Shown here one piece after another: positions 15,001-18,000 of a DNA stretch of 64,000 bases. Position numbers: made by a program. The stretch lies in assembly GCF_002854065.1 (NCBI RefSeq), contig NZ_CP024153.1; one strand, given 5' to 3'. The DNA comes from Escherichia coli (GTDB taxonomy: Bacteria > Pseudomonadota > Gammaproteobacteria > Enterobacterales > Enterobacteriaceae). Each line of letters opens with the position of its first letter. Within the stretch, counting starts at the first letter, position 1.

Positions 15001-18000
15001 ACAATCAAGCGATCGAAGGGTTATCAGCAGCGATTTGTCAGGCAACTTGCAGAATTAAGCAGGAGTTCGGAGACCCCGGCCCTGCCAGGTTCCTGATGAT
15101 TGTGCAGGAGAATGAAAATAATGTGTTTGATCAACACTTGCTTGAGCTCGCCCTCCAGCAAAAAGGAATCGAAACGCATCGCAGGACTTTTCGTGAACTG
15201 CATAATCAATTGAGTACAGGCGCCGACAACAGGCTCATTCTCGAGGGTGTAGGCCCACTTGATACCGTCTACTTACGTGCCGGATATCAGTATTCTGATT
15301 ATGAAGCATTCAATATCGATGAGCAGGAGTGTTGTCAGGCGCTGATGGCGACCCGAGTATTCATTGAGCAGCACCGGGTTGCAGTGAACGCCACAGTTGG
15401 CCAGCAACTGGCGACCAGCAAGCGAGTACAAATGCTGCTCTCGCAATTGGGTTACGACGAGTTTGTCGCATTTGGATTAACACTGCAGGAAGCTAAAATA
15501 GCAAAAACGATACTGGGTGAGATGTTACCCATCAGCCCGGATAGTATCAACCTTGCAAAAGAGTCTCCTTCGGAAACCTGGGTTCTCAAAAATCAGGGTG
15601 AAGGCGGGGGGCATTGTCTGTTTGGTGCGGATATCCTGACAAAACTGACGGAACTCACTCCACAACAATATCAGTCCTGGTCGCTGATGCGCCGTTTACA
15701 CCCTCAGCCCCGAGCTATGCCCACCTTGATTGTGCGTAAAGGGGAGTTGCATAAGGTGAATGATTTGATAAGCGAACTTGGAATGTTCTCCGTGCAGACA
15801 GATAACAATCCCTCCAGTGCTGAGCACAGTTTTGCTGGATATCTAATTCGTAGCAAATCAGCTGAATCGACAGAGGGAGGGGTCCATAGTGGACAAGGTG
15901 TTTTAGACTCGCTGGTATACAGCGATTAGTCCCTTTCAAGGGGGCTGAAATCTGGTTATATGAAAGCATGCGGTAAGTGGTGTTTTAGCCCCAGTGGAGA
16001 TGATGCTGTTTCTAGACTGAGTCGTAGTAAGCTAATAATAGTATTATAAATGAAGCCATGAGGGTATTTACAGGGCATATCTTATTAAGGGAACAACAGC
16101 AAAAACTGCTGCTATAAGAGGCTGCACCCAAAGTTCTTCAAGGTTCACATCATCGCTGCTGGGTCGATGCTGTTTCAGTTACGGGTCAATTTTCAATACC
16201 ATTAGCTGTTCCTGTGACTACGGTCATTACGCGCTGTCGACATCAATTTGTACAGCAAACAGTCTTAGCGTGGGATATTTAATGAGATGGTCACTCCCTC
16301 CTTCCCGGTACTATGCTGAGGATAGGCTTTCATTCGGAGAACTATCATGGAAAACATTGCGCTCATTGGTATCGATCTGGGTAAAAACTCTTTCCATATT
16401 CATTGCCAAGATCGTCGCGGCAAGGCTGTTTACCGTAAAAAATTTACACGGCCAAAGTTAATCGAATTTTTGGCGACATGCCCCGCTACAACCATCGCAA
16501 TGGAAGCCTGTGGTGGCTCTCACTTTATGGCACGCAAGTTGGAAGAGTTGGGGCATTTTCCTAAGCTGATATCACCACAATTTGTCCGTCCATTCGTTAA
16601 AAGTAACAAAAACGACTTTGTCGACGCCGAAGCTATTTGTGAAGCTGCATCGCGTCCGTCTATGCGTTTTGTACAGCCCAGAACTGAATCTCAGCAGGCA
16701 ATGCGTGCGCTGCATCGTGTCCGTGAATCCCTGGTTCAGGATAAGGTAAAAACAACCAATCAGATGCATGCTTTTCTGCTGGAATTTGGCATCAGCGTTC
16801 CACGAGGAGCTGCCGTTATTAGCCGACTGAGTACCCTTCTTGAGGACAATAGTTTGCCTCTATACCTCAGCCAGTTATTGCTGAAATTACAACAGCATTA
16901 TCACTATCTTGTTGAGCAGATTAAAGATTTGGAATCCCAGTTGAAACGAAAGTTGGACGAAGATGAGATTGGACAGCGCTTGCTGAGCATTCCCTGCGTC
17001 GGAACACTGACAGCGAGTACTATTTCAACTGAGATTGGCGACGGGAAGCAGTACGCCAGCAGTCGTGACTTTGCGGCGGCAACAGGGCTAGTGCCTCGAC
17101 AGTACAGCACGGGAGGTCGGACGACATTGCTGGGAATTAGTAAGCGAGGTAACAAAAAGATCCGAACTTTGTTGGTTCAATGTGCCAGGGTATTCATACA
17201 AAAACTGGAACACCAGTCTGGCAAATTGGCCGATTGGGTCAGGGATCTACTGTGTAGGAAAAGCAACTTTGTCGTCACTTGTGCTCTGGCAAACAAGCTG
17301 GCCAGAATAGCCTGGGCCCTAACGGCACGACAGCAAACTTATGTAGCATAACGGCAGAAATACACCGGTTTAAAGAATCACTGATCTGGTTTTGCGAATA
17401 CTGATATTGATGATACTAACGGCCCACCGGCCTGTTGAGGAACCTGTAAAACGGAAAGGCTCATTGAAGCCGTATATTTTCTGGAGGTTCATCAGGCGCG
17501 GAACTCATCGAGGCGCGGGAATAAAATCCCATTCAGACGCCGGATAGATTCAAGCAAGCCAATTTATCGTCAAAATCGGTGTTGCAAAAACGGGAGTGAC
17601 CATAGATTCCGTTTTCCAAGCGGACCCCGTGCTGTGTGGAAATCCGCCCACCTTGCCGGGCGCCGGTGCTGTGTGGAAATTCGCCCATCTTCATGACAAA
17701 AATTTGTCAAATGACAGGCTCATGTGTGCTGATTTATGTCAGACGGGATTTTGCTTATCAATTATTGAGAACAGAAATTTTCCTGAATCATCAATACTAT
17801 ACTTAGCAAGTAAAGGTGTTTTCTCATTTATCTGCTTGAGAGCAGGATCAAGGAAAGATCGTTTCAACTCTGCCAAGTTCTTCTGTTGGGATTCCGGCAA
17901 AAGGAAACGGTCATTTAACCAAGCATGAGTAGTAACCCATAAGCCTGAAGATTTGAATTGAGCAAGACTTTCATAAAGGCGGATCGTCCGTGGATTTCGA

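What the first reader, a model, noticed from the sequence alone, without database searches (positions are those of the whole stretch)
16264..17628. IS4321/IS5075-like element inserted at the characteristic position of a 38-bp transposon IR; its 3' non-coding end may encode a bridge RNA
Removing 16281-17607 (exactly 1327 bp) rejoins a 38-bp sequence, GGGGTCCGCTTGGAAAACGGA + AAATATCCCACGCTAAG, that differs from the Tn21 IR at only a few positions. This is the known behaviour of the IS1111 subgroup that targets Tn21-family IRs. The ~255-bp untranslated stretch after the transposase gene (17352-17607) is where IS1111-group elements are reported to encode their target-guiding bridge RNA; the IR variant here offers a natural test of guide/target pairing.
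Basis: partly seen in the sequence, partly recalled or inferred. Interest (0 to 1): 0.6.

Follow-up and report, generated by a model that had tools for sequence, protein, structure and literature searches.

The report
IS4321 with its guide RNA
This is an intact copy of the well-known insertion sequence IS4321 at its usual position inside a transposon end repeat, and its 3' untranslated end carries the already described kind of guide ("bridge" or "seek") RNA whose loops match that position; the finding is correct but ordinary.

Summary
Window 16281-17607 (1327 bp, + strand) is IS4321, 99.9% identical to the R751 copy. Removing it rejoins a 38-bp Tn21-family inverted repeat. That repeat occurs uninterrupted, in the same flanks, in other plasmids.

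The 3' non-coding end contains a conserved structured RNA at 17406-17562. A covariance model built only from relatives with 75% or lower transposase identity finds it at 147.7 bits. The same model also finds the experimentally validated ISEc11 seekRNA.

Two hypervariable patches flank a hairpin. AAAACGGAAA is complementary to the target's top strand. AUAUUUUC is identical to the top strand, so it would pair with the bottom strand. Across 31 guide groups these patches track each element's own flanks: 15.7 nt against 8.6 nt for mismatched pairings.

A second arm carries segments matching the IS's own ends.

The IR variant passes the guide/target test, but only weakly. Six of its seven differences from the Tn21 IR lie outside the 14-bp guide footprint. 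The seventh adds one base pair.

All of this is already known in kind. Durrant et al. 2024 list IS4321 with a predicted bridge RNA in its right end, and NCBI already names the protein family "RNA-guided transposase". Interest is low.

The parts
16264..16280 (-). Inner 17 bp of the interrupted 38-bp Tn21-family inverted repeat (IR positions 38-22, read on the - strand); left target flank
   Evidence: Contiguous with 17608-17628 in the empty sites L001 and L002.
17608..17628 (-). Outer 21 bp of the same IR (IR positions 21-1, GGGGTCCGCTTGGAAAACGGA on the - strand); right target flank
16281..17607 (+). IS4321, complete, 1327 bp (boundary ambiguous by one T)
   Evidence: 99.9% to R751 NC_001735.4 and 100% to NZ_MN082782.1 over positions 1-1327.
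16288..16298 (+). Left subterminal inverted repeat TGGTCACTCCC, 7 nt in from the left end
   Evidence: The inner part covaries with the right repeat in relatives.
16347..17351 (+). Transposase gene, 334 aa, DEDD type (D10, E53, D90, D93; T255-G256 in GLVPRQYSTGG)
   Evidence: NCBIfam NF033542 'IS110 family RNA-guided transposase', 341 bits against a cutoff of 140. Motifs located. 38% identity to TnpEc11 over the full length.
17406..17562 (+). Predicted bridge/seek RNA core
   Evidence: Model R1, built without any IS4321/IS5075 sequence, scores 147.7 bits (E 8e-33) full length on the + strand. There are no differences between IS4321 and IS5075 in this stretch.
17420..17432 (+). Small hairpin CGGCCCACCGGCC (helix 2)
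   Evidence: two pairs with compensatory changes.
17440..17445 (+). 5' strand of the stem enclosing the target-binding loop (GAACCU), pairing with 17485-17490
   Evidence: MFE folds. The outer part of the arm covaries (helix 3).
17446..17457 (+). 5' guide patch ('T'); the core AAAACGGAAA (17448-17457) is complementary to top-strand target positions -2 to +8 (TT|TCCGTTTT)
   Evidence: Hypervariable in the alignment and tracks each element's own right flank.
17458..17471 (+). Hairpin GGCU-CAUUGA-AGCC between the two target guides
   Evidence: Helix 5: 100% of cells paired, 3 pairs with compensatory changes.
17472..17484 (+). 3' guide patch ('B'); the core AUAUUUUC (17474-17481) is identical to top-strand target positions -6 to +2 (ATATTT|TC), so it pairs with the bottom strand
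17485..17490 (+). 3' strand of the enclosing stem (AGGUUC)
17504..17508 (+). Candidate left-end (donor) guide CUCAU, complementary to ATGAG at 16283-16287
   Evidence: The homologous columns in ISEc11 read AUUACAU, complementary to its left end ATGTAAT. Overall support is weak: own 5.6 nt against cross 4.2 nt.
17512..17541 (+). Hairpin arm GGCGCGGG...CCC...GACGCC between the two donor-guide candidates
   Evidence: Helix 7: all 4 pairs have compensatory changes.
17544..17551 (+). Candidate right-end (donor) guide AUAGAUUC, identical to the last 6 nt of the IS (ATAGAT) plus the first 2 nt of the right flank (TC)
   Evidence: In 7 distant lineages this segment equals the element's own right-end hexamer plus 1-4 flank nt (own 7.9 nt against cross 3.9 nt).
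17582..17587 (+). TTGCAA, the -35 half of a junction promoter formed only when the ends are abutted (TTGCAA-17 nt-GATAAT, the -10 spanning 17605-17607 and 16281-16283)
   Evidence: TTGCAAAA is invariant in relatives. No + strand sigma-70 match exists inside the linear element.
17592..17602 (+). Right subterminal inverted repeat GGGAGTGACCA, 5 nt in from the right end

Best explanation
The feature is an intact IS4321, an IS1111-group member of the IS110 family, inserted between positions 21 and 22 of a 38-bp Tn21-family transposon IR. Its DEDD transposase is guided by an RNA of about 157 nt encoded downstream of tnp (17406-17562, + strand). One arm of this RNA is a stem enclosing an internal loop with a central hairpin. 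The 5' side of the loop (AAAACGGAAA) pairs with the top strand of the target to the right of the insertion point. The 3' side (AUAUUUUC) pairs with the bottom strand to the left. The two footprints overlap by 4 nt across the junction and together read 14 bp (ATATTT|TCCGTTTT, IR positions 27-14). That 14-bp core is what Tn21-family IRs share, which is why the IS lands in them. A second arm places CUCAU and AUAGAUUC on either side of another hairpin. These match the IS's own left and right ends, so the RNA probably bridges donor and target. The RNA and the transposase are probably expressed from a promoter created when the excised IS circularises. What is shown here: identity, boundaries, conserved and covarying structure, guide/flank covariation, and homology to a validated seekRNA. 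What is inferred: that the RNA is made, binds the transposase, and is required.
For: Identity and empty site. Protein family: NF033542 'RNA-guided transposase', 341 bits. The DNA alignment to relatives of 62-75% protein identity runs to the last base of the non-coding end, which is better conserved than the gene. The alignment shows a fixed scaffold with two hypervariable patches. Patch-to-own-flank matches average 15.7 nt against 8.6 nt for patches paired with other groups' flanks; a sum of 18 nt or more occurs in 24% of own pairings and 0.19% of cross pairings, and the window scores 18. Structure: 97.9% of cells paired, 13 pairs with compensatory changes, slid controls at most 41% paired with at most 7 such pairs, and 0 of 500 shuffles as good. 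Model R1, built without IS4321/IS5075 sequences, hits 17406-17562 (+) at 147.7 bits and nothing else of note in 64 kb. It also hits the non-coding end of ISEc11, whose seekRNA was purified and reprogrammed experimentally (PMC11187229), and 5 of 6 further distant IS1111-type elements. IS4321 and IS5075 differ at 90 of 1327 positions but at none in the RNA core. Eleven distinct IS4321/IS5075-type sites are conserved at positions -6 to +8, the union of the two footprints, and three of them are not IRs at all. The right-end guide tracks its own end in 7 lineages. Literature: Durrant 2024 Supplementary Table 5 lists IS4321 in group IS1111 with its bridge RNA in the right end.
Against: There is no direct evidence of the transcript, its ends or transposase binding for IS4321. 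The closest experimentally tested relative, ISEc11, is only 38% identical in protein. Thermodynamic support is modest: z = -2.8 for the whole tail and -0.39 for the 161-nt subregion. Rfam 15 has no matching family. Helices 1, 6 and 8 never vary, so covariation says nothing about them. CUCAUC has three competing partners, and the two RNAalifold runs chose different ones. The left-end guide is short (5 nt) and barely exceeds cross-lineage matches. For ISEc11 an 82-nt RNA carrying only the target matches sufficed for transposition, so the donor arm may be dispensable. E-values from the model are rough because calibration was shortened.
Confidence: 0.9

Rival explanations
1. The RNA is a target-seeker only. 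It reads the target through the T and B patches, while the IS ends are recognised by the transposase through the subterminal inverted repeats. On this view the matches of 17504-17508 and 17544-17551 to the IS ends are not needed for function.
For: For ISEc11 the short 82-nt seekRNA alone supported transposition better than the long form, and those authors suggest that end recognition differs between IS1111 and IS110 types. The left-end match in IS4321 is only 5 nt, and own-versus-cross support is weak. CUCAUC can instead pair within the RNA.
Against: The segment 3' of hairpin P5 equals each element's own right-end hexamer plus flank in 7 lineages whose hexamers differ (ATAGAT, ATATAA, ATCTAT, ATATAT, TTATAG): own 7.9 nt against cross 3.9 nt. 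The order and polarity of the two donor candidates mirror those of the target loop. The arm is as conserved as the target arm. Durrant et al. report donor-binding nucleotides in IS1111 RNAs.
Confidence: 0.3
2. Target choice is made by the protein alone, which recognises the IR sequence or shape. The non-coding end would then be conserved for DNA-level reasons (transposase binding sites, the junction promoter), not as an RNA.
For: This was the default view before 2024. The tail does contain DNA elements: the subterminal repeat and the TTGCAA -35 box. No transcript was observed here.
Against: Compensatory changes keep helices intact. The only hypervariable parts of the tail change in step with the flanks, on both strands. 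Insertions occur at non-IR sites that keep only the 14-16 bp guide-matched core. A homologous RNA is experimentally required and reprogrammable in ISEc11.
Confidence: 0.04
3. The copy is an inert relic, and the guide/target matches in this window reflect history only, with no current function.
For: Nothing here shows activity. No + strand promoter was detected in the linear element.
Against: The ORF, both ends, the subterminal repeats and the RNA core are all intact and 99.9-100% identical to copies spread over hundreds of plasmids. Degenerate copies look different: L013 and L014 carry deletions. Lack of an internal promoter is expected for elements that rely on a junction promoter.
Confidence: 0.1

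Closest known systems
IS4321 of plasmid R751 (Partridge & Hall 2003, J Bacteriol 185:6371; cited; the paper itself is not held)
   Same: 1327 bp with one mismatch in 1327. Same subterminal repeats and the same insertion point and orientation in a 38-bp Tn21-family IR.
   Different: Nothing of substance. The host IR is a variant with 7 differences from the Tn21 IR, belonging to a remnant flanked by IS26 rather than to Tn4321/Tn21.
IS5075
   Same: Same length, ends, target and RNA core (no differences at element positions 1126-1282). It is found at the identical site of this very IR in pE80.
   Different: 93.2% identity overall, with 90 substitutions spread over the rest of the element.
ISEc11 seekRNA (Siddiquee et al. 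2024, PMC11187229)
   Same: The RNA lies downstream of tnp. The top-strand match is 5' of the bottom-strand match, the two flank a hairpin, and they overlap at the insertion point. The scaffold is detectable with the same covariance model (28.4 bits, full length). The patches match ISEc11's own flanks.
   Different: The transposases are only 38% identical, and the guides, ends and target differ. The ISEc11 RNA has been purified, sequenced and reprogrammed; the IS4321 RNA has only been predicted.
IS621 bridge RNA (Durrant et al. 2024, PMC11208160; Hiraizumi et al. 2024, PMC11208158)
   Same: A DEDD plus Ser/Thr recombinase. An RNA with one loop for the target and, probably, one for the donor, each reading both strands. 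The donor guide extends into target sequence, resembling 'handshake' guides.
   Different: In IS621 the RNA is upstream of tnp in the left end, the order of the strand matches is reversed, the subterminal repeats are 2-3 bp, and the core is the dinucleotide CT. In IS4321 the RNA is in the right end, the subterminal repeats are 11 bp, and only a single T is shared at the boundaries.

Membership tests
IS4321 (the named element) | Near-identity in DNA over the whole length to the reference copy (ISfinder treats copies of roughly 95% nucleotide identity or more as the same IS; threshold quoted from memory) | tested here: met
   99.9% over positions 1-1327 to R751 NC_001735.4, annotated 'IS4321 family transposase'.
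IS4321 (the named element) | Insertion at a fixed position and orientation within 38-bp IRs of Tn21-family transposons | tested here: met
   Insertion lies between IR positions 21 and 22. The same junction is seen in L003, L004, L005, L013, L015, L059 and L063, and an empty site is available.
IS1111 group of the IS110 family | Subterminal inverted repeats of 7-17 bp | tested here: met
   The 11-bp repeat TGGTCACTCCC / GGGAGTGACCA lies 7 and 5 nt from the ends. It covaries in relatives.
IS1111 group of the IS110 family | Long non-coding region downstream of tnp, short left end | tested here: met
   The left end is 66 bp (16281-16346) and the right end 256 bp (17352-17607).
IS1111 group of the IS110 family | DEDD (RuvC-like) N-terminal domain and C-terminal GL-P----S(t)G motif | tested here: met
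   NF033542 at 341 bits against a cutoff of 140. D10, E53, D90, D93 and GLVPRQYSTGG 247-257 are present, with T255 aligned to the Ser of TnpEc11.
IS1111 group of the IS110 family | Circular intermediate with a junction promoter | tested here: inconclusive
   Abutting the ends gives TTGCAA-17 nt-GATAAT. No circle was observed, and none can be with these tools.
Bridge RNA / seekRNA of IS110/IS1111 elements | Conserved secondary structure in the long non-coding end, on the tnp strand | tested here: met
   (13 compensatory pairs); 147.7 bits on the + strand against 13.2 bits on the - strand.
Bridge RNA / seekRNA of IS110/IS1111 elements | [quoted passage not shown] | tested here: met
   T is 10 nt (positions -2 to +8) and B is 8 nt (positions -6 to +2), with T 5' of B. 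Covariation with flanks holds across 31 guide groups.
Bridge RNA / seekRNA of IS110/IS1111 elements | Second loop matching the donor (IS ends) | tested here: inconclusive
   The right-end guide is well supported (own 7.9 nt against cross 3.9 nt). The left-end guide is weak (5.6 against 4.2). Whether the arm is required is in doubt.
Bridge RNA / seekRNA of IS110/IS1111 elements | The RNA is produced, binds the transposase and is required for transposition | not testable with these tools
   Shown for ISEc11, ISPa11, ISKpn4, ISPst6, ISEc21 and IS621, but not for IS4321.
Bridge RNA / seekRNA of IS110/IS1111 elements | Match to a curated RNA family model | tested here: not met
   Rfam 15 returned only two chance-level hits in 16000-18000. 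No such family appears to be in that library, so this says little.

The most novel reading that the evidence does not exclude
The explicit decoding of the IS4321/IS5075 guide RNA may not yet be in print. It comprises a 14-bp target footprint (IR positions 14-27), a right-end guide that runs 2 nt into the target like a handshake guide, and an RNA core frozen between IS4321 and IS5075 while the rest of the element drifts 7%. It would allow prediction of which Tn3-family IRs and which non-IR sites in resistance plasmids these very common elements can hit.
Probability: 0.4. Interest if true: 0.3.

Novelty: already known. Interest (0 to 1): 0.15.

Why it matters
IS4321 and IS5075 are present in at least 5000 sequenced plasmids and disable the ends of Tn21-family resistance transposons. 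Knowing the 14-bp sequence their RNA reads explains this behaviour and helps annotators place their boundaries. It adds no new kind of biology: the element, its target habit and the RNA-guided mechanism of its family have all been published.

Tried and rejected
**Rfam 15 scan of 16000-18000 at E up to 10.** It returned only SNORD96 and HIV-1_SD at chance level, so I built my own model.

**Thermodynamic stability alone.** z = -2.8 for the full tail and -0.39 for the 161-nt subregion, which is too weak to decide anything. The - strand folds almost as well (z = -2.5).

**Scanning the window for other sites matching the guides.** The top scores were the guide patch matching itself. A regex search found no second Tn21-type IR and no intact TTTCCGTTTT in the window.

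**Reading Partridge & Hall 2003.** The paper is not held, so the original description is cited only through later papers.

**Tandem Repeats Finder on the repeats after the IR.** It returned nothing because fewer than two copies are present.

**Working out which transposon owns this IR variant.** The left flanks of L003 and L015 hold unrelated genes and no Tn3-family transposase. I did not pursue this further.

**Using L090 and L085 for the guide tests.** L085 gave no model hit. The target patches of L090 did not match its flanks in the expected polarity. Neither was used for the target-guide test; L090 was kept only in the 7-lineage donor-guide comparison.
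Full report
**1. The observation**

The sequence is as described. Window 16281-17607 is 1327 bp. The 17 bp before it and the 21 bp after it join into CTTAGCGTGGGATATTTTCCGTTTTCCAAGCGGACCCC, whose reverse complement is GGGGTCCGCTTGGAAAACGGAAAATATCCCACGCTAAG.

A query made of 300 bp of left flank fused to 300 bp of right flank finds many plasmids with a single continuous match across the joint. In two of them that I fetched, pD90-1 (L001) and pEC_HLJ255 (L002), the exact 38-mer is present uninterrupted in identical surroundings. 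So the boundaries are real. They are exact apart from one ambiguous T: 16280 and 17607 are both T.

The IR matches the Tn21 IR at 31 of 38 positions. I checked that the Tn21 IR I used is genuine: it occurs at 100% in R100 (NC_002134.1) and next to merR in many plasmids.

**2. What the element is**

It aligns over its whole length to annotated IS4321 copies. Identity is 99.9% to the R751 copy and 100% to a Pseudomonas plasmid copy. It aligns at about 93% to IS5075, and at least 5000 plasmid records hold a match.

The 334-aa ORF (16347-17351) scores 341 bits on NCBIfam NF033542, "IS110 family RNA-guided transposase", against a cutoff of 140. It has the DEDD residues and the GL-P----(S/T)G motif. 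It is 38% identical to the ISEc11 transposase.

The ends carry 11-bp subterminal inverted repeats, 7 and 5 nt from the tips. The left non-coding end is 66 bp and the right 256 bp. Every defining feature of the IS1111 group that can be read from sequence is present.

**3. The 3' end**

Rfam has no family for it, and folding energy alone is not persuasive. I therefore collected 80 loci encoding relatives of 62-100% protein identity from species-representative genomes.

- DNA similarity to IS4321 runs to the very last base in nearly all of them. The tail is better conserved than the gene.
- The tips AATGAGATGG...CCATAGAT are almost invariant, the inner parts of the subterminal repeats covary, and the flanking sequences differ between subgroups.
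- Aligned, the tails show a fixed scaffold interrupted by exactly two hypervariable patches on either side of a small hairpin, all enclosed by a stem.

In the window:

| Part | Sequence | Coordinates |
|---|---|---|
| Stem, 5' strand | GAACCU | 17440-17445 |
| Patch T | GUAAAACGGAAA | 17446-17457 |
| Hairpin | GGCUCAUUGAAGCC | 17458-17471 |
| Patch B | GUAUAUUUUCUGG | 17472-17484 |
| Stem, 3' strand | AGGUUC | 17485-17490 |

**4. Guides and target**

AAAACGGAAA in patch T is the reverse complement of TT|TCCGTTTT (target positions -2 to +8). AUAUUUUC in patch B is identical to ATATTT|TC (positions -6 to +2). The RNA can therefore pair with the top strand on the right of the insertion point and with the bottom strand on the left, with a 4-nt overlap at the insertion point. 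The top-strand match lies 5' of the bottom-strand match, as reported for IS1111-type seekRNAs.

The same holds in relatives with entirely different targets:

| Relative | B patch | T patch | Flanks |
|---|---|---|---|
| Xenorhabdus type | GGGGAGUUUUUA | AAGAAACAAAAU | GGGAGTT\|TTGTTTC |
| Cupriavidus type | GCCUCUGUUAUU | GGGAAGUUAACG | CTCTGT\|TAACTTC |

(Both.)

Over 54 distinct insertions in 31 guide groups:

| Measure | Own flanks | Other groups' flanks |
|---|---|---|
| Mean of the summed longest junction-spanning T and B matches | 15.7 nt | 8.6 nt |
| Share with a sum of 18 nt or more | 24% | 0.19% |

The window scores 18.

**5. Structure**

RNAalifold on 47 non-identical tails predicts 38 pairs. 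Of the cells, 97.9% form standard pairs, and 13 pairs show compensatory changes. Sliding the partners by 1-3 columns drops pairing to at most 41% and compensatory pairs to at most 7. None of 500 shuffles reaches the observed values.

The helices with covariation are the small hairpin, the outer stem of the target arm, the hairpin between the guides, and the tip of the second arm. Three helices never vary, so covariation gives no evidence either way for them.

A covariance model built only from 36 relatives of 75% or lower protein identity, with no IS4321 or IS5075 sequence, finds the window at 17406-17562 on the + strand. The match is full length at 147.7 bits. The next hits score 13.6 and 13.2 bits.

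The same model finds the tail of ISEc11 (28.4 bits, full length), whose RNA was purified with the transposase and reprogrammed experimentally. The ISEc11 sequences in the T and B columns match ISEc11's own flanks. The model also hits 5 of 6 other distant IS1111-type elements, always just downstream of tnp.

**6. The IR variant as a natural test**

The two footprints together cover IR positions 14-27. The seven differences from the Tn21 IR lie at positions 7, 8, 11, 12, 27, 28 and 29. Six are outside the footprint. The seventh (A to T at position 27) lengthens the B match from 7 to 8 nt. The variant is therefore compatible with the guides, but it tests them only weakly.

A better natural test came from the related loci. 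Eleven distinct IS4321/IS5075-type insertion sites are conserved at positions -6 to +8, which is exactly the union of the footprints, and are much less conserved outside it. Three of them (L006, L009, L010) are not 38-bp IRs at all and keep only the core.

IS4321 and IS5075 differ at 90 positions spread along the element but at none in the RNA core.

**7. Donor side**

A second arm has a hairpin (17512-17541, all four tip pairs compensated) flanked by two segments. CUCAU (17504-17508) is complementary to ATGAG in the left end. AUAGAUUC (17544-17551) is identical to the last six bases of the IS plus the first two of the right flank. Their order and polarity mirror the target arm.

Within the IS4321 group the ends do not vary, so I compared seven distant lineages. 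The 3' segment equals each element's own right-end hexamer plus 1-4 flank bases:

| Lineage | Right end \| flank | RNA segment |
|---|---|---|
| IS4321 | ATAGAT\|TC | AUAGAUUC |
| ISEc11 | ATATAA\|A | AUAUAAA |
| L087 | ATCTAT\|G | AUCUAUG |
| L088 | ATATAT\|GT | AUAUAUGU |
| L089 | ATAGAT\|GTAA | AUAGAUGUAA |
| L090 | TTATAG\|T | UUAUAGU |

The mean match is 7.9 nt to the element's own end against 3.9 nt across lineages. The extension into target sequence resembles the handshake guides of IS621.

The 5' segment is less convincing: own 5.6 nt against cross 4.2 nt. It also has alternative partners inside the RNA. Since an 82-nt ISEc11 RNA with only the target matches sufficed in an assay, I rate the donor-bridging role as likely but unproven.

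**8. Expression**

No sigma-70-like site is found on the + strand inside the linear element. Abutting the ends creates TTGCAA-17 nt-GATAAT, and TTGCAAAA is invariant in relatives. This agrees with the junction promoters described for this family. It is an inference from sequence only.

**9. Comparison with what is known, and verdict**

The element is IS4321 and its insertion habit was described in 2003 (cited). RNA guidance of IS110/IS1111 transposases was shown in 2024. Durrant et al. list IS4321 (with IS4321L, IS4321R and IS5075) as an IS1111-group element with a predicted bridge RNA in the right end. Siddiquee et al. derived the IS4321 target logo from nearly 900 insertions.

In the held literature I found no explicit map of the IS4321 guides. 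Supplying one is an incremental detail, not a new kind of system.

The novelty class is "already known" and the interest is low.

Noticed in passing
window 16264-17628 compared with L083 2282-3608 (pE80, NZ_KU321583.1): Related plasmids carry IS5075 (93.2% identical, 90 differences spread along the element) at exactly the same position and orientation in the same IR of the same IS26-bounded module. Other plasmids have the site empty. This means either two independent hits on one site or replacement of one IS by the other.
   Followed up: partly
window 17629-17697; L001 from about 6322; L002 from about 6322: Directly outside the IR lie 37-bp iteron-like repeats (GTGCTGTGTGGAAATCCGCCCACCTTGCCGGGCGCCG) upstream of a RepE/RepM-like gene (17739-18467, - strand). 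The window has one full copy and one partial copy, while L001 and L002 have more. Tandem Repeats Finder reports nothing at this copy number.
   Followed up: partly
window 13810-14244 and 18473-19195: IS26 transposase sequences bracket the segment: a truncated ORF on the left and a full 240-aa ORF on the right. The IR, the glutathione-synthase-like gene and the rep gene therefore sit in an IS26-bounded unit, which recurs in IncHI2, IncF and IncN plasmids.
   Followed up: no
window 14466-15929 (+): A 487-aa ORF matches eukaryote-type glutathione synthase TIGR01986 below its cutoff (236 against 329.8 bits). It lies just inside the transposon remnant that owns the IR and is annotated 'glutathione synthase' in the plasmids.
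   Followed up: no
L008 2435-3761 and L010 2435-3761: The IS5075-like copy in L008 has the left flank of the non-IR site seen in L010 (one mismatch) and the right flank of a Tn21-type IR. This is a chimera, implying recombination between two IS copies.
   Followed up: no
L006, L009, L010 (IS at 2435-3761 in each): These IS4321/IS5075-type copies lie in sites that are not 38-bp IRs but keep the 14-16 bp guide-matched core. L009 has 11 nt of B match and a T match with two mismatches.
   Followed up: partly
L013 2435-3678; L014 2436-3756; L028 and L034 left ends: Several copies are degenerate or odd. L013 lacks 17 nt of the donor arm and part of tnp. L014 lacks the tip of hairpin P5. L028 and L034 share an aberrant left end (TACAAGATGG) and a left flank that their B patches do not match.
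   Followed up: no
L089 1657-1795 and right end near 1837-1847: In this distant IS1111-type element the RNA segment after hairpin P5 (AUAGAUGUAA) matches the right-end hexamer plus four bases of right flank. This is the longest handshake-like extension among the seven lineages compared.
   Followed up: partly
L003 1144-2166 (+): A second, unrelated IS110-family transposase ORF (340 aa) lies about 270 bp upstream of the IS4321-like copy in Rahnella bruchi.
   Followed up: no
window 8543-8577 (-): The covariance model gives a weak partial hit here (13.6 bits, E 0.11, model positions 103-137, 74% GC). It is probably chance.
   Followed up: no
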